DNA of 64,000 nt, taken from IMG/VR virus record IMGVR_UViG_3300005676_000020, positions 1-64,000 of that record; one strand, 5' to 3'. Under the pieces are notes generated by a model. The model did no database searches, was not told the DNA's origin, and was given only the letters and a program-made list of their open reading frames with translations. The position numbers and the translations under genes are program-made. This document shows positions 2,959 to 44,173 of the stretch, in pieces; position 1 is the stretch's first letter, and every line of letters begins with the position of its first letter. The stretch comes from a virus.

Positions 2959-2990
2959 CAAAGATACAAACGAATTTTGTATTTCCAAAA
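2959..2990 (-). promoter_or_regulatory. Bacteroidota-type sigmaA promoter firing leftwards
   Basis: The minus strand reads TTTTGGAAATAC...TATCTTTG. The TAnnTTTG -7 box is at 2959-2966. Confidence 0.55.
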
Positions 2991-32530: not shown

Positions 32531-33000
32531 TAGACTTAAAAAAAACAGAAAAGGATCTTTTCGGCAAGGTCGCAAATATCCTTGTAGCGTTCATGGTGCT
32601 TGCTTTATGGATAAAGACAATGCACCTTTTTGAAGGGTGGTTATTCTCCACCGAACTGATTTCCCAACTGTTTTTCTACCAGTATCAACACCCGCAACTT
32701 ATAAATATTTACCTGTTCTGTATAGCGGCGCCGATAGGGGAGGAAGTAGTCTTCAGGCATTTCCCTTTACAGGTGCTGAAGTCCGTAAAGAAACCGGATC
32801 TGTATTGGCCGGTAATACTGATGACCTCTGTCATTTTTGGATGGTTACACCAGGGTCACCTGAATATTCTCATCCAGGGTATGATAGGTCTGGTATGTAG
32901 TGTTTTGTACATAAAAAATAATCATTGTCTATTGTCTGCCATAGCGTTACATAGCCTATGGAATTTGGCTATCCTGCTAAATTTGTTTAACTTTAACTAA
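32527..33000 (+). CDS. CPBP/CAAX-family (Abi) intramembrane protease
   Basis: EEVVFR, FGWLH and HSLWN motifs set within TM helices. Confidence 0.85.
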   Translation: MIDLKKTEKDLFGKVANILVAFMVLALWIKTMHLFEGWLFSTELISQLFFYQYQHPQLINIYLFCIAAPIGEEVVFRHFPLQVLKSVKKPDLYWPVILMTSVIFGWLHQGHLNILIQGMIGLVCSVLYIKNNHCLLSAIALHSLWNLAILLNLFNFN

Positions 33001-36000
33001 TGGCGAATACGTGTTCAATACTCCGTAATAAAGAGACAGGTGAGATAGAGAAAGTACTGGCCCCAAATGGTCAGGAAAGTATCTTATGGAAAAGTCTCAT
33101 AAGCATAGGGGAGCTTTCTATCAATAAAGAAGATACTTTACGTACCTGGGCGGTTGCCTATACAACAGGGTTTAAAAATGAATTTGGAGACTGGGAGCTT
33201 TTCCAGAAGGCCAGGGAGCTGTCAGGTTCTATAGAAAAAGCTTTCTACAGAGACCTTTTTGAAAATGAACCAGAACAGTTCCTGTTTGAAATGGCTCAAC
33301 AGCTCCGGTCGTCTGATATAGAAGCCCAGGCTGCCAGAAATGTAATGGGCAACGACCTTGCTCAGATAGCTCTACAGTTGTTCCCAAACTCCGTAGTAGG
33401 TTCAAAATACACACCTCAGTTTACCGGTAAGGTAGACAGTAATGGTGAACCTTTATTAGAACATGTTGTCTCTCCCCCAGGTCTCCCTTGGTTTGAAGAC
33501 GCTATACCCTACACTCAAAATTTTGAGGAAATACAGTTCCCGGACCTTGCCAAATACGATGACGAAATCATGCAGCAACTGCCGGTTAAGGTTGGAGCTA
33601 AAAAGCAAGTGATAAAGATAAAGGGGTTGGATGTCACCGAGATGAAAGCCAAACGACCTAAAGAAAAAAAGGCTGTATTTATAGATTCAGACACCTTCCA
33701 GGATATAGGTAAGTTTATAAAAGACGGACCTAAGGACCCTACTGACTTCCGTCATGACATTATACGAATAGGTAATAACATATATGTAAAATCCGGTGAC
33801 AACCTGGCATTCAAGCAGTTTTATCCCTTCCTGGACTTTTCCAAGAAATATAAGGTACGGGGCCGAACCTTTTACTATCTCACCAATAACTTTGTCTACT
33901 CCCCCGGTTCAAGTATCGGCGCTTCCAGGGAGTACAGTATCATGAAAGCCAGGGCTATTAAACAGGGTAAGTTTGGTATAAAACCTATAAAAACAAAACC
34001 CAGGTTGACTAAGAGGGCGAAAGAGGCCATAGAAGCATTTATAGAAAAGAAGAGGAGTTATATACCTTTGATAAAGGAGGAAATAGAAAAGTTTGTTTAT
34101 CAAGTAGATAAGTCCCGACAATCCGCTTCTGACCATTTAAGGTCGATAGCTAACTCATACGAGTCACTGATGGACCCTTCACATAAGGAGGAGTATATAA
34201 AGATATTAGAAAGCCGGTTTCTTAGACAGACCGAAGAGTTTTTTAAAACATATGAGGGTGATGACGGAGAGGATATGATAAAGTCGACAATGAGCACTCT
34301 ATCAAACTATCTTCAAAAATTACCGGCACTGGTATTGTTTAATATGGTACATGACCAACCTGTCTCTGAGTTCTCAGCAATGGAATCTGAGATAGATGAT
34401 GAATTTTCTGAGTTCATATATAGATTTTCTGTTAGTTCAGTCATACCAGAATCGTTTATTTCCGGAGAAAATGGAAGGAGGATAAGTTTAAAAAGTATAT
34501 TTGATACGGTAAATGTAGAAATATTCAGCGACCGGGGCTTACGTGAGAAGTTGACCGCTGACGAAATTATGAAAATATCCAAGTCAGGTATCTTCAGAAA
34601 AGTCGACACGAGTAATTTGAAAAGGACAAAGGCGTTAGCTGTATTTTTGGAAGTTTATGACAGACACGGTCATGTTGCAGCTAATACTTTTTGGTCTGCG
34701 TATCGTAAAAATATAAATACTGCTTCTGCCGAAATCATTCAGAAATATTTTAATAAAAATAAGGGTAGAGAGGAAGATTACAACTCTATAATGGATGATA
34801 TAAGAGATACCCTAAAGGGTGTGGATAAATACTCAGGAGCTTATGTAGATAGTGAGTCTATCGAATACCGAACTTGGTTTTCTAGAATAAGTTCCAGCTT
34901 TGTCCCATTGATCGATATAGCCGAAGGTATATATAAATCAGCTTCTGGGTCCGTAGAACTTCACATACTAAACCGGATGTTGTTAGAAGTTCCTGAACTA
35001 GGTGACGACCCTTACCAAAGATTTAGAAAAATTGTTGACCTAATATTTACCAATGAAGAAGACTTATCAGAAGAAGATAGGTCGGTGTTAGAATATCTCA
35101 AAACTACAAAGGCTAAATCTTTGTTTAACAATATATTGAGAGCTTTCCGTGAGCTACTGAGATTTATCATATACGGTCCAGATTTCCAGTCACGTTCTGC
35201 ATTTGAGGCGTTAAGTGCACAAATGGATAAAGTACATGAATATCTTGCCGGCAGGAATACTGTTTTTTCACTTCAAATCGGAACTGGTGAGCGAAAGGAA
35301 GAAATTGTTGTTAACGATCAAGTAGTAGAGATTAAAAATACGGAAGACCGTGTGAGATATGGGATTTCATCTAATATTGAAGTTGACACTGATGAGAATG
35401 GTGTTTCTGAAACGCTTCTTGAAAGATTTCCGGAAGGCTCTACTCTTCAATATGTTCGGGTGCTTGAGGCTCCTAATCTTAAATCAGTGCCGGTAGATTT
35501 CCGGTTCCCTCATCAGCTCCAAAAATTTATTGCCCCCAATCTAAGCATTCAGGATATACCAGAAGGAGAGTTTAAGTCTTTCCTGTTAAATGAAATGCGT
35601 TATGTTAAGTTAAAGGATTATGAAAAGGAGAGGCTTCGTGAAAAAGGAGGTCTCGGTATGATTTTTAACATTTCATCAGCTGTTTCTAAGTTATACACTT
35701 CCGGTAAACCTAAGTATTCATTTGAGCATAAGGCTCTTTTAAAAACAAATCTAGGTGTCGGGTCTTTACCTATGTACACTCTTGGGGAAAACGGTAGCGT
35801 GTTCAATATCGAATTTGGAGCCGGGGCAAATTCTCCTTTTCCAGAAAGTCTTTATGAAAGATTTAGACTTGACCACGGTCTCAGAAAGTTGTATATAGAT
35901 AAACCTATTGGATGGTTCGGTGGGGTTTATTCAGTAGAAAATAAGACTATATCTGTTACTGAGGTTCAGTCAGACCTTTTACAAAGGTCAAAGACTATCG

Positions 36001-39000
36001 GCGAACTTAGGTCTAAGGTAGAAAATTACTATGACGGTTGGCTTTATGTTTTTACCGGAACTGCAATCAATTTGCTCCTAAATTACTATGAGGATGTAAC
36101 TCATATAAGAATACCGACCTCAGAAACTTACAAAAAGTTCAAAAAAGAAAGTCCTTCTCAATATTATGACAAGATAGCTTCTGTATTCCCGACAACTTTA
36201 TCAGAAGACGGCCGCTGGCATGTTATAAAAGTATCGGATATTTTTGGTAAAATCAGTCCAGATAAAAAATCCCAGTTTGATTTTATGATAAAAGCGGGTG
36301 TCAGAGCTGGGGTTAAGGAGCAAAAAGAGATAACACCAGACCTTCAATCTGACAGGGATAATGCAATGGACATATTGGAAAGTTTAAAAGAAAGTGAGAT
36401 TCTTGGTTCTTACCTGAAAAGCTCCCCTGACCATGTGAGTGAAATAGAAAAATGGATTGAGAGGGAGTTCTCTAATGAGAAACCTATGACCGATGATACT
36501 AAAGGAGGAGAGCTTGTTGGACCGGATGGCGAGGTGATTGAAGAGGATGAAGGTTATGAAGAGACAGATATGGACCGGTTAGTAAGAGAGACAGCTGCTA
36601 ATAAAAAAAGAGAGTATGTTTTCGATCTCGACTGGGCTTTAGATGAGTTGTCTGCGGCTATGAAAAATAACGATACTGCAAGGGTGAATTTTATAAAAAG
36701 GCTTTTGGAAGAACACACGTCAGGTAAAATAAACTTCAACCGTTCTTCTTCAGGTAATTACAAACAAATACTGTCTCTAGATAACCAAAAGATTTTTGAA
36801 GAGCTTATTGCAAAAGGACTTATTACTGAGCGGCGCTGGAATGGTATGTACTTTGTTCCAAAGCAATACCGGGAGCCGTTCAGGAGACCTCCGTTCAGCT
36901 ATCTCAAAAAAGACTTTCGTGATGGTCACTTCCTTGACAAGAACAAGTACGAAGAGTTAAAGGCTATCATAGAGGTTCGTGGACTCAGTTGGCTTGATGT
37001 CAGACCTTCTAATTCAGGAGACTCTTATGTTGTAAGAATATTTCCTACCAGACAAGAGTCTATGCAGACTCGTCTCCATGAGTTTGCTGGCAAAGATGCA
37101 TTCATAAAGATTGCTGACCGCCTGTCTAAGCGACTAGGAGTTCCTTATAAGATTATTGATGCTGAACAGGCCCTGAAGATAACAGAGGACTCACAGATAC
37201 CTTGGAATGGTGAAGGGGCCTTTGCCTATAAAGGTACTGTATATGTTCTGCAGGAAGCGTTGTCTCTGGAGAATGCCGTACACGAATTCTCTCACTTCTT
37301 CATCGAAGCTGTCTCCAAAGAGTCTCCTTACCTGTTCTCAAAACTCTATAAGCAGTTAAAAGATGATCCTTATACCCGGGAGAGATACCTTGACCTGGTA
37401 GAAAGACTATACCCTGACCTATCTGAAGAAGATAAGGTCAAAGAGGTTATGGTTAGGGCGTTAACTGACAAAGCCCTGGGTCTCATAGATGAGCGTGGAA
37501 ATGTTATCTTAGAGGCTATCCGTAAGATTTTCAGAACTCTCGCTAATATCATCCGTACTCTGTTCGGAGTTAGTGTTAAGAACCTGAACGAAAACACCAC
37601 ATTAGACCAGCTGGCAGCAATACTTCTCGGAGAGAATGATGGTGAAGTCCTAGACCTTGGCGACCGTAACACAGGCTTCTTTATGAACCTGTTTCCGATG
37701 TTCAACCGGGACATTGCCAACCAACTGGAAAAGCTTACCGGCTCTACTGTAAAAAGTAGTATAGACTCATTCTTTACTGTTACAGATGCCCACTATCAAA
37801 GGCTTCGTCAGGATAAGGACCTGGAAAAGCTGAAAGAGATACTCAGTAACCAAAAGGGTACTACTCTCGTATCAGATGAGCGTCAGATACTTATGAGAGC
37901 TGCAGACTTTGCCAGAACCCTGGAGGAGAATATGAAAGTCGACCGTGCCGCTCTTATCACCTTTGCAGAGGCTATTGAGGGTCAGGAGGTTATAGCTAAG
38001 AAGATGGCCGATCACGTAGCTTCTGTCGTAACCGATAAGGATATGTCCACTCAGGAAAAGCTGGCTATATTCCGTAAATATAGTTTCATAACCAAAGAGT
38101 GGACTACTGTCGTAGACCTTTTCATGAAGGCTATCAAGGACTCTCCTGTGGGCCGTGGAAGAAATCCCTTGAGCGATTCTATCCAAAACATGATATCAGA
38201 CTATAAGTTTATTGACAACAAGATAAAGGATTTTTACAAAGAGGACGGTCTGCCATCATTGTTCAGAGAAGAGATAGAGGGGAACATCTACTATCAGGCG
38301 GCGATGAAAGAACAGGAGGACAGGATAAAAGAACTGGAAGAAGCCTACAAAAAGGATAAAAACCCGGCTATAAAGAAAAAACTAGACAAGGAGCGCGGAC
38401 TCTTAGAGAGATATAAGCTTACCGACGAAACCCTTGCCAAGTACTTATCAGGTGAGATGGGCGATACCAATCACTATTCAATGTACCTGGAAAGCTACAC
38501 CTCCAATCCAGATCCGATTGTTGGTCACTTCGCTAACTGGTTCATGAAGCACAAGTTCCGTGCTCAGTCAAGAGCTCAGCAGCGCATGACAGCCTTCGAG
38601 AACAAAATCTCAAAGATTTACAAGAAACTAGGCTACAAGCCAAAGGACTTCCAGAAAGTATCAGAGAACCTGGTACAGATAGAGACCTTCTTTGACGGCT
38701 ACCGTAACTTCAAAGGGGAAGAAAGAAAAGCCTGGACGTTCATAAACCAGTATGGTGACGATGCCAACGGCGTCGGCTGGCAGTTTGAATATAACCGTCT
38801 TCTCCAGGAAAGGGAAAGTGCCAAGCAACGGATGCACTCCCCTCTCCGGGCTCCCGGCTATGAGAATATGACCGGTGAAGAAGAGTATCGCCGTAAGAAC
38901 CAGGCCTTTGAGCAGTTTAAGCTTGACTATATGTTTGATGAGGAAGCTGATGTAATCAAAGAAGCAAGGCTTTTCTGGTTCCGTGACGCAAACACCCATA

Positions 39001-42000
39001 AGGCTAAGATGCGCAGGGAAGAGGTCTTAAACGAGATACGGGCACTGGACTATAAGGATTTCTCTAAAGACGAGGCTCTGGAAAAAGTAACGCAGAGTAA
39101 AGCGCTATGGAGAAAGTACCGTCAGCTTGGCTCTATCTATGATGAAATGGGCAACAAAAAGGAGGGTGACGAGCTGGAAATAGCACTTACCATACGCGAA
39201 TACAACGAGAAATACGGTAATTTATACGAATACGTAGAGATTTCAGGGGCTTTTGAGTCTAATCTGAAGTCTCATGAGCAGCAGGTTGCCGATGACCTGA
39301 TGAGTTCTGGTAACTACAAGACAGAAGCAGAAGCCAAGGCTTCTCCGGAGTTCCGGGCGGCCATTCAGAAATGGTACCGTGACAATATCCGTATCACCCT
39401 TACAGAAACCTTCTATAAGGAGCGTTCTGACATTGCTGAAAGGTTAAAAGCCTTTTCAGAAAGCCTTGGTGATCAGAAGATTAAAAAGAATCTGGAAGAA
39501 GTTTCCGAAGCGTGGTCTGAAATAAACCGTATAATCCAGGGTAACCGGGACGATGACCGTCAGCCTATTGGCACCGACCTTTCCGATGAGCAGCGTAAAA
39601 GAGTCCTTGAACTGCAGCAAAAGGTCATGGACCTGAACTCTGCATTTAACCAGGCCAACAACCTGAGCGATGAGGAGGATATTGAGTACGGTCAATATGT
39701 CCTTAAAAATAAGGTGTTCTTCATGGAATTGACTGAGCAAGAGTACGCCAGGATGAAAGAATTGGAAGAAAAGGCCGGTATAAAGCTTACTAAAGACCAG
39801 TACCTGGAAAAAAAGAAGATATTTGATGATTTAAATGCCCTACAATCGAAGATCGCCACGCCCTACTATGTAGACACAGTTAATGATTTCCTGGCCGCAT
39901 CGGGCTCAGAATTGCGTATAACGCCACTCAGCGCTGACGAACTGCTCACGGCTGAGGTAATCCAGCCTATTTTGAGGAAAAACCCAGAATTTAGGAAGTG
40001 GTGGAACGAAAATCACCTGGAAAAACAGATATACGACAAGACTGTCGATGCTGTAGTCCTTAAATATAACAGGTCTTATGTCTGGAACCGGAATGTGCCT
40101 AATGACGAGATGTTCAAGACGCTACTCGATAACGGCGACTACGAAGGGTTGTCAAGGTACAAGTCCCCTTATCTTGAGGTAAAACCGGCCCAGGAGTACT
40201 TTTACCGCCGTCTGAAGCCTGAATTCAGGCATTTCCAGTCCCGGGAAACTCTCTGGATAACCCATGACAACCGCGGAAACTGGCTACCTAAGCCTACAGA
40301 GGCTACTGCCACACCGGCACAGAAGGAGTATATGCTCAAGCATAAGATCCCTTTTGCCAAGCCTCGGTTTGAAAATAAAAAGTATTTGGACCTTCGCGAA
40401 AATAAAAAGGACGAGTTTGAGTTACTTGAAGCCTTTAAACAGTTCCACCTTGAAAGTCAGCAAGATCTGGCCAGGTATGCCCGTCTGGGTCTTGAGGTAC
40501 CACGTCTTCGTAAGAACAGTGTAGAGAACGTAGACCTGTCCAAATTGGCTGATAAACCTAAGGATTGGTGGAATAACATAAAGGGTTGGCTTGGCGCCAT
40601 GTTTATGAAGCGCCAGGATGACTATGAACTGGGTACGGGAAGCTATATAGCGCCGGCTAACCGCGCTCAAACATATGTTCTATCTGACCTTATGGGCGAC
40701 CAGATTAACTCTATACCTATCAAATACATGTCACATGTAGAAACTGACCTGGTTTCTATGGACATTGGCAAAGCTGTAGAGATGTACGCTGTATCTGCAG
40801 AGACCAATAAGGTTCTGCACGAGATAAACCCCATGGCAAATGCCCTTAAAGAAGTGCTTTCTGACCCGGAAAATAAACCAAAGGACCTTACAAAGAAGAG
40901 ACGTAACATCATCAAAATCATCACTGATCCCTTAAAAGGTTCTACCAATAACAACGCAAACAAGAAAGGTAACTATAACAGGCTGAAAATCATAGAAAAC
41001 TTCCTGGAAAGAGAGCTTGAAGGAGAGGTTAACATACAACAGTTTGGACCGTTTATAGAAAAAATCGCCCATGGCCTTATGAAGATAGGTGCCTGGGGTT
41101 CATTAGGTGGTAACATATTTGCCGCGCTAAAGAACGCCGTCGGCGGCCAGATACAGAACAACCTCGAGTCGGTCATGGGTCAGAAGTTCACGCCAAAGAC
41201 CATGATGCAAGCAGATTTGGAATTTGGCAAATTGATGGTCGACCTGATGCGGGACTACTACCAGATAGGCGATAAGTCCCTGTATACGCAGATGTTTATC
41301 CTGTTTGACCCGCTTAACTTCTTTACGCAGAAAGCCGGTTCTAACTTTTCAAAAACTGTAACCCGGGACGCTCTCGACCTGCGCTGGATTATGGGAATGC
41401 AGAAGTTCGGCGAGATCAACATCCAGGGTTCCGCCTGGCTGGCGATGATGCTCCACCAAAAGGTAGCGTTTACTGACCCTCATTCCGGGGTGCAAAAAGA
41501 AATCCCATACCTAGAAGCGTGGGAACTCAAAGATGGTGTACTTTCCTTAAAAAAGGGAGTAGACAGTAAATGGGACAGAGGTAACTCGAACTTTTTGCAA
41601 TTCTCCGCATCGGTACATAAAGTGAATGAGTTAAACCAAGGTGCTTACTCTGAAGAATCCCAACCAGAGATTAACAGATATACTCTTGGTAAATTATTTT
41701 TATTCATGAGAAAATTCTATATACCGGCTTCGGTAAATAGGTTTGCTCCAAAAAGGTATAATGCCGGTCTCGGCTCTTTCCGTCAAGGTTACTGGATGCC
41801 TCTTTTTGAGATGATAAAGAATACGGCTACGGGTCACCCTCTGATGCCTGGTACTGACGATTTCAAGGTGATGTACTCTGCTTCTGAACGTGCTGCGGCT
41901 CTCCGTGCTGCTTCTGAGCTTGCTACTATTGCCCTTATTGGCTTGATGATTAAAGCTCTTGGATTCAACGATTCCGACGATGAAAAATACGATAAGCTGA

Positions 42001-42365
42001 AGGATAACGATTGGTTCCACAACTTCGCCATATACCAGCTGATGCTGATTAAATCTGAGGCTGAAACTTTCATTCCGTTGTTTGGTATGGGCATTAACGA
42101 AACAGTTAGGTTCCTTGGAACCCCTACTATTGCGTTTAACACCGCCCGGAGATGGGTTAAGCTGGCTAACGACTTCGTTTTGTGGACTATCGGCTCCGAC
42201 GCTGCCTTCTATCAGCAGGCTTCAGGTATATATGACGAAGGACAGATAAAGTACCTTGCCGACCTGTACAATATCATCGGCTGGAAGAACTTTGCCTATA
42301 TCACTTCAAATGAAGACCTGCAGAAAGGTATCGTAATGTATTCGGCCATGCAGAAGAGGATATAA
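33000..42365 (+). CDS. giant virion cargo / polyvalent protein
   Basis: 3121 aa. LAPNG.ES.L..FKNEFGDW N-terminus, EVQSD motif, HEFSH zincin, and a long helical C-terminal region. Confidence 0.75.
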   Translation: MANTCSILRNKETGEIEKVLAPNGQESILWKSLISIGELSINKEDTLRTWAVAYTTGFKNEFGDWELFQKARELSGSIEKAFYRDLFENEPEQFLFEMAQQLRSSDIEAQAARNVMGNDLAQIALQLFPNSVVGSKYTPQFTGKVDSNGEPLLEHVVSPPGLPWFEDAIPYTQNFEEIQFPDLAKYDDEIMQQLPVKVGAKKQVIKIKGLDVTEMKAKRPKEKKAVFIDSDTFQDIGKFIKDGPKDPTDFRHDIIRIGNNIYVKSGDNLAFKQFYPFLDFSKKYKVRGRTFYYLTNNFVYSPGSSIGASREYSIMKARAIKQGKFGIKPIKTKPRLTKRAKEAIEAFIEKKRSYIPLIKEEIEKFVYQVDKSRQSASDHLRSIANSYESLMDPSHKEEYIKILESRFLRQTEEFFKTYEGDDGEDMIKSTMSTLSNYLQKLPALVLFNMVHDQPVSEFSAMESEIDDEFSEFIYRFSVSSVIPESFISGENGRRISLKSIFDTVNVEIFSDRGLREKLTADEIMKISKSGIFRKVDTSNLKRTKALAVFLEVYDRHGHVAANTFWSAYRKNINTASAEIIQKYFNKNKGREEDYNSIMDDIRDTLKGVDKYSGAYVDSESIEYRTWFSRISSSFVPLIDIAEGIYKSASGSVELHILNRMLLEVPELGDDPYQRFRKIVDLIFTNEEDLSEEDRSVLEYLKTTKAKSLFNNILRAFRELLRFIIYGPDFQSRSAFEALSAQMDKVHEYLAGRNTVFSLQIGTGERKEEIVVNDQVVEIKNTEDRVRYGISSNIEVDTDENGVSETLLERFPEGSTLQYVRVLEAPNLKSVPVDFRFPHQLQKFIAPNLSIQDIPEGEFKSFLLNEMRYVKLKDYEKERLREKGGLGMIFNISSAVSKLYTSGKPKYSFEHKALLKTNLGVGSLPMYTLGENGSVFNIEFGAGANSPFPESLYERFRLDHGLRKLYIDKPIGWFGGVYSVENKTISVTEVQSDLLQRSKTIGELRSKVENYYDGWLYVFTGTAINLLLNYYEDVTHIRIPTSETYKKFKKESPSQYYDKIASVFPTTLSEDGRWHVIKVSDIFGKISPDKKSQFDFMIKAGVRAGVKEQKEITPDLQSDRDNAMDILESLKESEILGSYLKSSPDHVSEIEKWIEREFSNEKPMTDDTKGGELVGPDGEVIEEDEGYEETDMDRLVRETAANKKREYVFDLDWALDELSAAMKNNDTARVNFIKRLLEEHTSGKINFNRSSSGNYKQILSLDNQKIFEELIAKGLITERRWNGMYFVPKQYREPFRRPPFSYLKKDFRDGHFLDKNKYEELKAIIEVRGLSWLDVRPSNSGDSYVVRIFPTRQESMQTRLHEFAGKDAFIKIADRLSKRLGVPYKIIDAEQALKITEDSQIPWNGEGAFAYKGTVYVLQEALSLENAVHEFSHFFIEAVSKESPYLFSKLYKQLKDDPYTRERYLDLVERLYPDLSEEDKVKEVMVRALTDKALGLIDERGNVILEAIRKIFRTLANIIRTLFGVSVKNLNENTTLDQLAAILLGENDGEVLDLGDRNTGFFMNLFPMFNRDIANQLEKLTGSTVKSSIDSFFTVTDAHYQRLRQDKDLEKLKEILSNQKGTTLVSDERQILMRAADFARTLEENMKVDRAALITFAEAIEGQEVIAKKMADHVASVVTDKDMSTQEKLAIFRKYSFITKEWTTVVDLFMKAIKDSPVGRGRNPLSDSIQNMISDYKFIDNKIKDFYKEDGLPSLFREEIEGNIYYQAAMKEQEDRIKELEEAYKKDKNPAIKKKLDKERGLLERYKLTDETLAKYLSGEMGDTNHYSMYLESYTSNPDPIVGHFANWFMKHKFRAQSRAQQRMTAFENKISKIYKKLGYKPKDFQKVSENLVQIETFFDGYRNFKGEERKAWTFINQYGDDANGVGWQFEYNRLLQERESAKQRMHSPLRAPGYENMTGEEEYRRKNQAFEQFKLDYMFDEEADVIKEARLFWFRDANTHKAKMRREEVLNEIRALDYKDFSKDEALEKVTQSKALWRKYRQLGSIYDEMGNKKEGDELEIALTIREYNEKYGNLYEYVEISGAFESNLKSHEQQVADDLMSSGNYKTEAEAKASPEFRAAIQKWYRDNIRITLTETFYKERSDIAERLKAFSESLGDQKIKKNLEEVSEAWSEINRIIQGNRDDDRQPIGTDLSDEQRKRVLELQQKVMDLNSAFNQANNLSDEEDIEYGQYVLKNKVFFMELTEQEYARMKELEEKAGIKLTKDQYLEKKKIFDDLNALQSKIATPYYVDTVNDFLAASGSELRITPLSADELLTAEVIQPILRKNPEFRKWWNENHLEKQIYDKTVDAVVLKYNRSYVWNRNVPNDEMFKTLLDNGDYEGLSRYKSPYLEVKPAQEYFYRRLKPEFRHFQSRETLWITHDNRGNWLPKPTEATATPAQKEYMLKHKIPFAKPRFENKKYLDLRENKKDEFELLEAFKQFHLESQQDLARYARLGLEVPRLRKNSVENVDLSKLADKPKDWWNNIKGWLGAMFMKRQDDYELGTGSYIAPANRAQTYVLSDLMGDQINSIPIKYMSHVETDLVSMDIGKAVEMYAVSAETNKVLHEINPMANALKEVLSDPENKPKDLTKKRRNIIKIITDPLKGSTNNNANKKGNYNRLKIIENFLERELEGEVNIQQFGPFIEKIAHGLMKIGAWGSLGGNIFAALKNAVGGQIQNNLESVMGQKFTPKTMMQADLEFGKLMVDLMRDYYQIGDKSLYTQMFILFDPLNFFTQKAGSNFSKTVTRDALDLRWIMGMQKFGEINIQGSAWLAMMLHQKVAFTDPHSGVQKEIPYLEAWELKDGVLSLKKGVDSKWDRGNSNFLQFSASVHKVNELNQGAYSEESQPEINRYTLGKLFLFMRKFYIPASVNRFAPKRYNAGLGSFRQGYWMPLFEMIKNTATGHPLMPGTDDFKVMYSASERAAALRAASELATIALIGLMIKALGFNDSDDEKYDKLKDNDWFHNFAIYQLMLIKSEAETFIPLFGMGINETVRFLGTPTIAFNTARRWVKLANDFVLWTIGSDAAFYQQASGIYDEGQIKYLADLYNIIGWKNFAYITSNEDLQKGIVMYSAMQKRI

Positions 42366-42369
42366 TTTC

Positions 42370-42597
42370 TCATATTTTATGTGTTTCCTGCAGATACAGC
42401 TCTAGCATAGTAAGCAGAAATTCCCTAGCCTGAATCTGACTTCTGAAATATAGAACCTCGGCTTTGAACCCGTATTCCTCGCATATCAACCTTACCCCTC
42501 TCGGAGGTACTCCCGCTTGCTGACCTCCTTTCGGAGCTTCGGGGAACCGTTCGAACCTTACAGTGTTTAATATGTGTTCTGGTAGCATAGTTGTCAT
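42370..42597 (-). CDS. stand-alone class I release-factor (GGQ) domain protein, ArfB/PrfH-like mini protein
   Basis: 75 aa from ATG 42597. KGGQQAG...GVRL...G....E....RSQ..ARE follows the RF domain 3 pattern GGQ..N....AVRL.H.PTG..V.....RSQ..N. Confidence 0.7.
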   Translation of the reverse strand: MTTMLPEHILNTVRFERFPEAPKGGQQAGVPPRGVRLICEEYGFKAEVLYFRSQIQAREFLLTMLELYLQETHKI

Positions 42598-42608
42598 TTT
42601 AAAAAAAA

Positions 42609-42672
42609 AGCGGCGGCAGGGGTCAAGACCTGCGTAACTTCCCAAAGGGTGCGCCAACCTCGCTTCGCCGCT
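42609..42672 (-). ncRNA. tRNA-like small RNA with truncated anticodon arm
   Basis: AGCGGCG AA GCG-AGGTTGG-CGC A CCC-TTT-GGG AAGTTAC GCAGG-TCTTGACC-CCTGC CGCCGCT, followed by T8. Confidence 0.55.
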
Positions 42673-42703
42673 ATAACTCCAAAAACAAACGTCAGAAAAA
42701 GCT

Positions 42704-43336
42704 TTATAACAATCTCAGCACCTTGATTGAACCTCCTGTGATTTTCGGAAAGACGTCCCATCCGCCAGGGGCTTGATCTGCGGGAATTCTATCCATCTCC
42801 ACTTGTACATCAAACACTCTGGGTTGAGGTAGCAGTTTGTTTATAAGATATTTGAATGCTTTGCCCTTTTCTGCGCCATACTCATTTCTCATCTTTACCT
42901 CATTGAGTTGTTCAGAGTTAATAGAATCCAGGATGTGAATTACATCCTCTTCATTGAACCTCTTCTCATTAAGAGACTGTGCTGTTTTAAAACCTTCGAG
43001 GAAACCGCAATATGCATAGTCATCGAAGTCATTTACTGCATACTCAGCCGCCAACTCCTCAACATCAACCCATCCAATCTTCTTACAATCTTCTTCTGAT
43101 AAAGCAGAGAAGTCTACTGAAGGTAGTTCAGGAATACCTGCTATAATTTTCTTTTGGTTTCTTTCATCAATGTCGTTGAGGTTATCCACTTGCCAAATTG
43201 TCCATTCACCTGTAGTTAGTTTCTCTGCTACATGGTACGGGAAAATGTCTCGTACATCTGGTTCATAACTAACCAGTATCGGCTGTGGTAACATCATTAT
43301 CAATTGTATATTCATAGTCTTTTTTTTATTTAGCAC
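42704..43336 (-). CDS. hypothetical protein
   Basis: Long open frame, probably starting at MNIQLI (43315). No recognisable catalytic motif. Confidence 0.6.
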   Translation of the reverse strand: MLNKKKTMNIQLIMMLPQPILVSYEPDVRDIFPYHVAEKLTTGEWTIWQVDNLNDIDERNQKKIIAGIPELPSVDFSALSEEDCKKIGWVDVEELAAEYAVNDFDDYAYCGFLEGFKTAQSLNEKRFNEEDVIHILDSINSEQLNEVKMRNEYGAEKGKAFKYLINKLLPQPRVFDVQVEMDRIPADQAPGGWDVFPKITGGSIKVLRLL

Positions 43337-43633: not shown

Positions 43634-44173
43634 ATGAACTCTGGCATTTACAAGATAACTAATACTGTAACAGGAGATTTTTATATTGGTTCCTCATGTC
43701 AATTAAACAGACGTAGGAGAAATCATTTTATATCTCTTGAAAGAAACATTAGTCATTCAAAAATATTACAAAGAGCATATAACAAATATGGTAAAGATAA
43801 TTTGTTTTTTGAAGTATTAGCTATATGTCCAAAAGAATATCTACTAAAACTTGAACAATGGTTTATTAATGAACTTAAACCAAAGTACAACATTTGTAAT
43901 ATAAATCCAAATACAACGGAAGGATATAATCATACTAATGAAGATAAAGCAAAAATGAGACAAATAAAATTATCTCAAAATGCTGTAAAATTATATCAGT
44001 ATAATGATAATCAACAACTTATAAAAGTCTGGGATTGTTGTAATGATTATGCTAACTATTACAAAGTATCACCAGCAGCTTTACATAAAGCATGTAGAAA
44101 GGGTCAGAAATGTGCAGGTTTCAAAGTATCTAAAACACCTATTCACCTGCACGATTTCAGTAACCCTCGTTGA
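43634..44173 (+). CDS. GIY-YIG homing endonuclease with C-terminal NUMOD-like DNA-binding segments
   Basis: MNSGIYKITN...FYIGSS...R...H...LQRAYNKYG...LEQ.FI....PKYN (I-TevI-like). Start reassigned to ATG 43634. Visibly more AT-rich than its flanks. Confidence 0.9.
   Translation: MNSGIYKITNTVTGDFYIGSSCQLNRRRRNHFISLERNISHSKILQRAYNKYGKDNLFFEVLAICPKEYLLKLEQWFINELKPKYNICNINPNTTEGYNHTNEDKAKMRQIKLSQNAVKLYQYNDNQQLIKVWDCCNDYANYYKVSPAALHKACRKGQKCAGFKVSKTPIHLHDFSNPR

What the first reader, a model, noticed from the sequence alone, without database searches (positions are those of the whole stretch)
42370..42672. Anticodon-less tRNA mimic placed 11 nt upstream of a minimal GGQ release-factor protein
Seen: a 64-nt cloverleaf with a perfect 7-bp acceptor stem, 2-nt linker, 3-bp D stem with GG in the loop and 5-bp T stem. 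The T loop is non-canonical (8 nt), the anticodon arm is reduced to CCC-TTT-GGG, and no CCA is encoded. The next gene is a 75-aa protein consisting only of the GGQ peptidyl-tRNA hydrolysis domain, with no codon-reading domain and no ArfB-type basic tail. Known: GGQ domains release nascent chains, and many anti-phage systems cleave tRNA anticodons and stall ribosomes. Inference: a two-part phage ribosome-rescue or translation-hijack module, or a decoy for tRNA-targeting defences.
Basis: partly seen in the sequence, partly recalled or inferred. Interest (0 to 1): 0.78.

Follow-up and report, generated by a model that had tools for sequence, protein, structure and literature searches.

The report
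Phage bare GGQ domain behind terminator
A 142-kb crAss-like phage from sludge carries a real, conserved 75-residue gene that is only the peptide-releasing GGQ domain of a bacterial release factor, but the "tRNA mimic" in front of it looks like a branched transcription terminator (possibly a decayed tRNA) and is not a conserved partner of the gene.

Summary

Protein (42370-42597, minus strand):
- Alone it misses Pfam RF-1.
- It has 55 aligned relatives of about 72-76 aa, and GGQ is invariant in all 56 sequences.
- The family profile hits domain 3 of RF2/RF1 at E 4.5e-13, and 46 of 56 members hit PF00472.
- The AlphaFold model (pLDDT 91) matches RF1/RF2/PrfH/ArfB.
- In sister phages 6 of 7 substitutions are synonymous.
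- It has no codon-reading domain and no ArfB tail.
- g110 of the cultured phage phi14:2 is a member and is a middle gene with a mapped promoter.
- This scan has met the same catalogued but unstudied phage family on at least 25 other genomes.

RNA (42609-42673, minus strand):
- The cloverleaf is the minimum-energy fold, but it is no more stable than shuffles.
- ARAGORN and Rfam do not recognise it, and it is single-copy.
- Its 7-bp GC stem runs straight into U9, the longest T run in the genome, at a position where this genome routinely places terminators.
- None of eight distinct related loci has an RNA upstream.
- Its 3' half resembles the phage's own tRNA-Lys (p about 0.004-0.008), so it may be a tRNA relic.

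A two-part rescue module is not supported.

The parts
42370..42597 (-). 75-aa gene for a bare GGQ (release-factor domain 3) protein
   Evidence: ORF. It has 55 aligned relatives (58 hits; alignment). The family profile matches RF2/RF1 at E 4.5e-13. 46 of 56 members hit PF00472. AF2 model pLDDT 91; Foldseek hits are RF1/RF2/PrfH/ArfB. 6 of 7 substitutions in sister phages are synonymous.
42520..42528 (-). codons for Gly24-Gly25-Gln26, the GGQ motif
   Evidence: Invariant in 56 of 56 aligned sequences. It aligns to the GGQ of RF2 and mitochondrial RF1.
42598..42600 (-). AAA between the U tract and the start codon; with the U tract it forms an A/U-rich leader
   Evidence: Sequence. The same layout (hairpin, T run, short A/T leader, start codon) occurs at five other places in the genome.
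42601..42609 (-). U9 tract directly after the closing stem (A9 on the plus strand)
   Evidence: Longest homopolymer run in the genome. It is one base shorter in sister phage X16.
42609..42673 (-). branched, cloverleaf-shaped GC-rich structure: probable intrinsic terminator, possibly a tRNA relic
   Evidence: MFE and centroid fold. Single copy. No tRNA or Rfam match. It is the only branched one of 10 intergenic hairpin + T-run elements. Its 3' half aligns to tRNA-Lys(UUU) of the same genome.
42674..42703 (-). 30-nt spacer between the stop codon of the 210-aa ORF and the structure
   Evidence: It holds only a two-mismatch Bacteroidota-type promoter look-alike, which is expected by chance at 2.3 per kb per strand.
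42704..43336 (-). upstream 210-aa ORF of unknown function, the last gene before the structure
   Evidence: ORF. No Pfam family. Parts are replaced by unlike sequence in sister phages.
33000..42365 (+). convergent 3121-aa ORF; its stop codon lies 4 nt from the stop codon of the GGQ gene
   Evidence: Distant relatives in crAss-like phages. Relatives 55-66% identical over the C-terminal 501 aa.

Best explanation
Position. The region is the meeting point of the rightward structural block and the leftward replication and nucleotide-metabolism block of a crAss-like phage.

The gene. The last leftward gene (42370-42597) encodes a 75-residue protein that is only domain 3 of a class I release factor: strand, GGQ loop, two strands, long helix. 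It belongs to a widespread phage family of about 72-76 aa with an invariant GGQ. Inferred: the domain docks its GGQ loop in the peptidyl-transferase centre. Most likely it hydrolyses peptidyl-tRNA where the A site is free, on stalled or split ribosomes, without reading a codon. How a near-neutral bare domain is held there is unknown.

The RNA. The cloverleaf-shaped element in front of the gene is most likely a transcription punctuation signal: a GC-rich stem abutting U9 that ends or attenuates the upstream operon. The U/A-rich tail would double as the unstructured leader of the GGQ gene, a layout this genome uses repeatedly. The branched interior may be the remnant of a tRNA gene. It is not a conserved partner of the protein.
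For: Protein identity (shown):
- 58 hits at E <= 0.001, nearly all 64-103 aa; two long hits are repeat artefacts.
- GGQ is invariant and RSQ nearly so in 56 sequences.
- The family profile matches RF2/RF1 domain 3 at E 4.5e-13 to 1e-9, without gaps from GGQ to the helix.
- 46 of 56 members hit PF00472. PHROGs names two matching families 'RF-1 domain peptide chain release factor'.
- AF2 model pLDDT 91, pTM 0.76. The top ~48 Foldseek hits are RF1/RF2/PrfH/ArfB, TM 0.6-0.7.

The gene is real:
- Sister phages about 97% identical carry 7 changes in the ORF: 6 synonymous and 1 Ala-to-Val.
- Homologue g110 of phage phi14:2 is a middle gene with a primer-extension-mapped promoter (bioRxiv 10.1101/2020.03.07.982082).

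RNA as terminator:
- A 7-bp stem with 6 G-C pairs has probability about 1.0 and abuts U9.
- U9 is the longest T run in the genome.
- The structure begins 31 nt after the stop codon of the 210-aa ORF.
- The genome holds 10 intergenic hairpin + T-run elements. Six of them, this one included, lie 12-32 nt before the next start codon on the same strand.

Not a partner:
- Eight distinct relatives' loci (L002, L004, L007, L008, L009, L010, L013, L017) have no tRNA and no match to a model of the element.
- In L004, L007, L008, L013 and L017 the gene overlaps or nearly abuts the preceding gene; phi14:2 g110 (L002) has its own promoter directly upstream.
- The nearest syntenic relative found lacks both the gene and the element.

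tRNA relic:
- Nucleotides 30-59 align to nucleotides 39-65 of the genome's only tRNA with 22 of 27 identical. The T-stem difference is compensatory.
- 0.6% of shuffles and 0.35% of GC-matched genomic windows reach that score.
- That tRNA is the best match of the 24 phage tRNAs tried.
Against: - The structure is not a canonical terminator. Its closing stem encloses 50 nt in three arms, whereas the other nine candidates in this genome are simple 18-27-nt hairpins. The standard scan did not flag it.
- A gene under purifying selection sits directly behind it with no recognisable promoter of its own. Termination must therefore be leaky, or the element has another role.
- The element showed no listed change in two sister phages. 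About two changes were expected, so this says little either way, and some differences were not listed.
- For the protein, no activity is shown. Established knowledge of ArfB is that its GGQ domain needs the C-terminal tail to bind ribosomes. This family has none, and its median net charge is 0.
- The window's own protein has Ala where 46 of 56 members have the Asn of RSQxxN.
Confidence: 0.62

Rival explanations
1. Two-part module. The cloverleaf is a functional anticodon-less tRNA-like RNA. It is processed and perhaps CCA-tailed, and it works with the GGQ protein on ribosomes or decoys tRNA-targeting defences.
For: The cloverleaf is the MFE and centroid fold, with arm probabilities 0.69-1.0. 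The acceptor-like and T-like stems add up to 12 bp. The 3' half resembles a real tRNA on the same strand as the gene. The element and the gene stay together in sister phages while the gene upstream diverges.
Against: No tRNA call by ARAGORN down to -ps40, and none by the Rfam tRNA model on 85 nt or on the whole genome. The T loop has 8 nt and lacks the U54-U55-C56 pattern; A stands at position 8. The fold energy is ordinary. No relative of the gene has such an RNA. The U9 tail is a terminator feature, not a tRNA feature.
Confidence: 0.07
2. Leader or attenuator. Transcription starts upstream of the structure, and the stem + U9 is a conditional terminator that sets how much GGQ mRNA is made.
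For: A terminator-like element lies 11 nt before a gene that must be expressed. The block 42361-42730 is conserved as a unit in sister phages. A weak Bacteroidota-type promoter look-alike at 42713-42680 would start RNA near the 5' end of the stem.
Against: That look-alike is expected by chance, at 2.3 per kb per strand. No alternative antiterminator pairing was found by eye, and no ligand-binding or T-box-like family matches. Five other hairpin + T-run elements in the genome also sit just before genes, so nothing here is specific to this gene.
Confidence: 0.13
3. The protein is not a hydrolase. It is a docking inhibitor or decoy. It may occupy the peptidyl-transferase centre to slow host termination or translation. 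Or it may soak up a factor that recognises the GGQ domain of release factors, such as the methyltransferase PrmC or a host defence protein.
For: It has no ribosome-anchoring domain or tail, and net charge 0. The helix carries a family-specific acidic and hydrophobic motif (consensus LFELYLDE) where release factors have basic residues. Sister subfamilies have replaced GGQ: SQS in L017, and variants in earlier notes of this scan.
Against: GGQ is invariant in all 56 sequences of this subfamily and RSQ nearly so. That is what is expected of a catalytic loop. No partner gene recurs beside it.
Confidence: 0.3

Closest known systems
Domain 3 (GGQ / peptidyl-hydrolase domain, Pfam RF-1 PF00472) of bacterial class I release factors RF1 and RF2
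   Same: Same fold and same spacing from GGQ through RSQxxN to the long helix. The family profile matches at E 4.5e-13 without gaps. GGQ is invariant.
   Different: Only this domain is present: no domains 1, 2 or 4, so no codon reading. 'VN' after GGQ is replaced by 'xG', and the basic helix surface by an acidic and hydrophobic one. The window's own sequence falls below Pfam's detection.
ArfB (YaeJ) / ICT1 / mtRF-R (C12orf65): codon-independent GGQ rescue factors
   Same: A GGQ domain used without a codon-reading domain. mtRF-R acts on split large subunits, which is the nearest functional analogy (my own knowledge).
   Different: Those proteins have a linker and a basic C-terminal helix or tail, or a partner protein, that holds them on the ribosome. 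This protein ends three residues after the domain helix and is uncharged overall. The sequence match is much weaker: E about 1e-4 against 1e-13 for RF2.
Catalogued but unstudied phage mini RF-1 domain proteins (phrog_20323, phrog_3122, phrog_19918, phrog_35727; phi14:2 g110)
   Same: Same size, same fold, phage-borne, in early or middle gene blocks beside replication and nucleotide-metabolism genes.
   Different: This member is divergent: at most 51% identical to any other cluster, with no PHROG or Pfam hit of its own. Here it is the last gene of a block, behind a terminator-like structure.
Intrinsic (Rho-independent) terminators
   Same: A GC-rich stem directly followed by a long U tract, placed after a stop codon in an intergenic spacer.
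   Different: The stem closes a 50-nt three-armed interior instead of a 3-8-nt loop, and a selected gene follows 11 nt later.
tRNA genes and tRNA pseudogenes
   Same: Cloverleaf outline, GG in the first loop, and a 5-bp T-like stem. The 3' half is 22 of 27 identical to the phage's tRNA-Lys(UUU), with one compensatory pair.
   Different: No anticodon arm, an 8-nt T loop, A at position 8, an unrelated acceptor stem, and no detector call.

Membership tests
RF-1 / GGQ domain superfamily (PF00472) | Gly-Gly-Gln in the loop between the first and second strand | tested here: met
   G24-G25-Q26 is invariant in 56 of 56 sequences and aligns to the GGQ of RF2.
RF-1 / GGQ domain superfamily (PF00472) | Significant profile similarity to the family | tested here: met
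   Met only through the family. The single sequence gives no hit at E <= 10. The profile of 56 sequences gives E 4.5e-13 to RF2, and 46 of 56 members hit PF00472, best 1.6e-13.
RF-1 / GGQ domain superfamily (PF00472) | Fold: strand, GGQ loop, two strands, long helix | tested here: met
   AF2 model pLDDT 91 with E13-18, E34-39, E44-48, H54-72. Foldseek's best hits are all release factors, probability 1.00.
RF-1 / GGQ domain superfamily (PF00472) | RSQxxN motif at the start of the helix | tested here: inconclusive
   R52-S53-Q54 are present. The Asn is Ala in this protein, although 46 of 56 members keep Asn.
RF-1 / GGQ domain superfamily (PF00472) | Peptidyl-tRNA hydrolysis on the ribosome | not testable with these tools
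   This needs a biochemical assay.
Class I release factors RF1 / RF2 / PrfH | Codon- or damage-recognition domains 2 and 4 | tested here: not met
   The protein has 75 aa and consists of domain 3 only.
ArfB / ICT1-type rescue factors | Linker plus basic C-terminal helix or tail that enters the mRNA channel | tested here: not met
   The helix ends at residue 72 of 75. Net charge is 0 and the family median is 0.
tRNA / tRNA-like RNA | Recognised by tRNA detectors or the Rfam tRNA model | tested here: not met
   ARAGORN finds none at default, -ps90, -ps80, -ps60 or -ps40. Only the lax mitochondrial mode makes junk calls (4 in 200 nt), and its call over the element lies on the opposite strand. Rfam gives none at E <= 10 on 85 nt. 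RF00005 on the genome finds only tRNA-Lys.
tRNA / tRNA-like RNA | Cloverleaf with 7-bp acceptor stem | tested here: met
   It is the MFE and centroid fold, and the stem probability is about 1.0. The shape arises in about 4% of interior shuffles.
tRNA / tRNA-like RNA | Anticodon arm (5 bp, 7-nt loop), 7-nt T loop with the U54-U55-C56 pattern, U8 | tested here: not met
   The middle arm has 3 bp and a 3-nt loop, the T loop is UCUUGACC (8 nt), and A stands at position 8.
tRNA / tRNA-like RNA | Structure kept by covariation in relatives | tested here: inconclusive
   Only about 97%-identical sister phages hold it, with no listed change. No diverged copy was found.
Intrinsic terminator | GC-rich stem immediately followed by a U tract | tested here: met
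   The stem has 7 bp with 6 G-C pairs, followed by U9.
Intrinsic terminator | Simple hairpin with a short loop | tested here: not met
   The interior is 50 nt and branched. The consensus scan did not flag it. It is the only branched one of 10 candidates.
Intrinsic terminator | RNA 3' ends at the U tract | not testable with these tools
   No RNA run holds the stretch.

The most novel reading that the evidence does not exclude
The cloverleaf is a tRNA-Lys-derived, anticodon-less small RNA that is made as a discrete molecule and ends at the U tract. It acts together with the bare GGQ domain, for instance by holding or guiding it on ribosomes stalled by tRNA-cleaving defences. That would supply the ribosome anchor the protein lacks.
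Probability: 0.06. Interest if true: 0.85.

Novelty: new member of a known kind. Interest (0 to 1): 0.45.

Why it matters
A release-factor catalytic domain stripped of everything that normally places it on the ribosome, yet kept with an invariant GGQ in many phages, challenges the view that this domain needs a codon-reading domain or a tail. It points to an untested way for phages to free or manipulate ribosomes. The useful new point here is that a cultured crAss-like phage, phi14:2 of Cellulophaga baltica, carries a member (g110) that is known to be transcribed as a middle gene. The family can therefore be tested at the bench. The claimed RNA partner would have made this a new kind of system, but it does not hold up.

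Tried and rejected
The contigs of the closest protein relatives (P0001-P0011) could therefore not be read.
- No RNA holder was listed among sequencing runs. The two runs guessed to be RNA did not cover 42340-42930, so there is no evidence on expression.
- No DNA relative in the phage collection for the 1.4-kb region, and only chance hits (E = 8) for the element.
- No exact copy of a 25-nt piece of the element in viral contigs.
- Single-protein scans of viral contigs for the GGQ protein, the 210-aa protein and the C-terminus of the giant protein found nothing.
- tblastn of the window's protein against phages found nothing.
- The whole 338-nt spacer is not unusually structured on either strand: z +1.25 and +1.04. 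The GNRA-type hairpins I noticed inside the ORF therefore count as chance.
- P0005 and P0022 (345 and 534 aa, 'multi-stretch' hits) are tandem-repeat proteins without GGQ and were discarded.
- attP reading: no tyrosine integrase in the genome.
- Own promoter for the gene: only a two-mismatch look-alike at chance frequency, and eye inspection of upstream regions gave no shared motif.
- The protein atlas gave only scores below 0.9.
- Literature searches found no study of bare GGQ domains in phages.
- No recurring neighbour gene: ThyA, ThyX, DnaB and unknowns.

Full report
**Setting.** The window is the first 64 kb of a complete 142-kb virus record.
- The plus strand carries a block of very large ORFs that ends at 42365.
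- The minus strand carries replication and nucleotide-metabolism genes from about 64 kb down to 42370.
- The finding therefore lies where two transcription blocks converge.
- The giant protein has distant relatives in crAss-like phages.
- Near-identical DNA is held by runs from activated sludge, biofilm and bioreactors.

**The observation.**
The centroid structure agrees.
- Pair probabilities are about 1.0 for the closing stem and 0.94, 0.77 and 0.69 for the three arms.
- The ATG of a 75-codon ORF lies 11 nt further on.
- The fold is not unusually stable: z = -0.35.
- With the closing stem fixed, 81% of interior shuffles fold at least as well, and about 4% give three hairpins.

- On its own the sequence gives no RF-1 hit in Pfam at E <= 10.
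- A search of 1.84 billion representatives found 58 hits, nearly all 64-103 aa and 29-51% identical.
- Two long hits are repeat artefacts without GGQ.
- In the alignment of 56 sequences, GGQ is invariant, Arg-Ser of RSQ is present in over 90%, and the spacing matches release factors.
- The profile of this alignment matches domain 3 of RF2, RF1, mitochondrial RF1 and PrfH at E 4.5e-13 to 1e-9, and ArfB and C12orf65 at about 1e-4.
- 46 of 56 members hit PF00472.
- The AlphaFold model (pLDDT 91, pTM 0.76) is strand, loop, two strands and a long helix. Its best Foldseek matches are all release factors.
- The protein ends three residues after the helix. Its net charge is 0, as is the family median. 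There is no ArfB-type tail and no codon-reading domain.

**The gene is under selection and has an expressed homologue.**
- Contigs of two sister phages cover 42361-42730.
- The seven differences listed inside the ORF are six synonymous changes and one Ala28Val. This agrees with the four near-identical proteins in the database.
- Cellulophaga phage phi14:2, a cultured member of Crassvirales, encodes a 73-aa member, g110.
- Drobysheva et al. list g110 among the middle genes whose promoters they mapped by primer extension (bioRxiv 10.1101/2020.03.07.982082).
- Directly upstream of g110 and g108 the phi14:2 sequence shows TTTG and TAnnTTTG, the Bacteroidota promoter type. That reading of the motif is my own.

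**The RNA is not a recognisable tRNA.**
- ARAGORN finds nothing at default or at thresholds lowered to -ps40. Only the lax mitochondrial mode makes calls: four in 200 nt, and the one over the element is on the other strand.
- Rfam gives nothing at gathering scores, nothing at E <= 10 on 701 nt, and nothing on 85 nt.
- The tRNA model run on the whole genome reports only tRNA-Lys at 86300-86371.
- The T-like loop has 8 nt without the U54-U55-C56 pattern, position 8 is A, and the middle arm is 3 bp with a 3-nt loop.

**It does look like a terminator.**
- The 7-bp stem (six G-C pairs) uses the first U of a U9 tract. That tract is the longest homopolymer run in the genome.
- A census with fixed criteria finds ten intergenic hairpin + T-run elements. 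The criteria were a closing stem of at least 5 bp with at least 4 G-C pairs, -11 kcal/mol or better, then T5 or more.
- Six of the ten, this one included, sit 12-32 nt before the next start codon on the same strand. The closeness to the GGQ gene is therefore the genome's habit, not a special coupling.
- Against the terminator reading, the other nine are simple 18-27-nt hairpins and this one alone is branched over 64 nt. The consensus scan did not flag it.
- A selected gene follows it without a convincing promoter. Termination must therefore be partial, or the element has a further role.

**It is not a conserved partner of the gene.**
- I read eight distinct relatives' loci: phi14:2, three viral contigs and four kinds of metagenome contig. 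L005/L006 duplicate L007, L011 duplicates L010, and L016 covers the same contig as L004.
- In five of the eight (L004, L007, L008, L013, L017) the mini-GGQ gene overlaps or nearly abuts the preceding gene. In phi14:2 it has its own promoter directly upstream.
- None of the eight has a tRNA.
- A covariance model of the element matches only itself in all loci and in the four whole records searched.
- The one syntenic relative I could fetch has a giant protein 66% identical in the C-terminus. It has a single 139-aa ORF between the ribonucleotide reductase gene and the end of the giant gene, with no GGQ gene and no element. This spot is therefore an accessory hot spot.

**A possible origin.**
- The 3' half of the element aligns to the genome's only tRNA, tRNA-Lys(UUU), from the 3' strand of the anticodon stem through the variable loop and T arm.
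- 22 of 27 positions are identical, with three inserted bases. The T-stem difference is compensatory: GTAGG/CCTAC in the tRNA against GCAGG/CCTGC in the element.
- 0.6% of shuffles and 0.35% of GC-matched windows of the genome score as well.
- Of 24 phage tRNAs, the phage's own is the best match.
- Across all 24 tRNAs the signal is weak: the mean z is reached by 4.7% of controls.
- This is suggestive, not proof, of a decayed tRNA copy re-used as a terminator.
- There is no tyrosine integrase, so an attachment site is unlikely.

**How it probably works.**
- Shown: the fold, the invariant motif, purifying selection, and expression of one homologue.
- Inferred: the domain places its GGQ loop in the peptidyl-transferase centre. 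Because it cannot read codons or fill the mRNA channel, it would act where the A site is open. Stalled or split ribosomes are the likeliest targets, as mtRF-R does on split mitochondrial large subunits (my own knowledge).
- A docking inhibitor or a decoy for factors that recognise the GGQ domain remains a serious rival. Reasons: the neutral charge, the family-specific acidic helix surface, and sister groups that have lost GGQ.
- Neighbours in relatives are ThyA, ThyX, DnaB and unknowns, so no partner protein emerges.

**Novelty.**
- PHROGs already names two matching families as RF-1 domain proteins.
- Earlier notes of this scan describe the same bare-GGQ phage family on at least 25 other genomes.
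- I found no paper that studies it.
- This is a divergent new member of a catalogued, unstudied kind. The part that would have been new, the RNA partner, is not supported.

Noticed in passing
window 42730-43050: In two sister phages about 97% identical elsewhere, 224-230 nt and a further 54 nt of the 210-aa ORF are replaced by unlike sequence of similar length. The GGQ gene and the giant gene stay conserved. This is a fast-diverging gene of unknown function.
   Followed up: no
window 42361-42365: The contig of sister phage X2 has about 280 extra bases between the end of the giant gene and the end of the GGQ gene (record positions 2638 to 2918).
   Followed up: no
phi14:2 record NC_021806.1 4370-4499 (locus L019): A weak match to the Rfam tRNA model (21 bits, 130 nt) lies in the g004-g006 region, where Drobysheva et al. 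report very abundant non-coding transcripts.
   Followed up: no
L017 2501-2725: A family member has Ser-Gln-Ser in place of GGQ. It sits right after a ThyX gene, and two tRNA genes lie about 3 kb upstream on the contig.
   Followed up: partly
L010 2474-2713 and L011: A family member keeps GGQ but has SKGRGKN in place of RSQxxN. It sits right after a DnaB helicase gene.
   Followed up: no
L046 5506-5925: In a relative whose giant protein is 66% identical, the whole stretch between the ribonucleotide reductase gene and the giant gene is one 139-aa ORF. That stretch here holds a structured RNA, an endonuclease gene, the 210-aa ORF, the element and the GGQ gene. Its reductase gene also has one intein instead of two.
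   Followed up: partly
whole genome (G000), e.g. 57846, 61215, 72680, 88148 (minus strand) and 105286 (plus strand): Simple GC hairpins with T5-T7 tails lie 19-32 nt before the next start codon on the same strand. Terminator-like punctuation inside gene blocks is a general feature of this phage.
   Followed up: yes
window 2959-2989 and 43758-43786 (minus strand); genome 85854-85885 (minus strand): There are exact matches to the Bacteroidota promoter pattern TTTG-N17-23-TAnnTTTG. This points to a Bacteroidota host. One of the matches lies antisense inside the GIY-YIG endonuclease gene.
   Followed up: no
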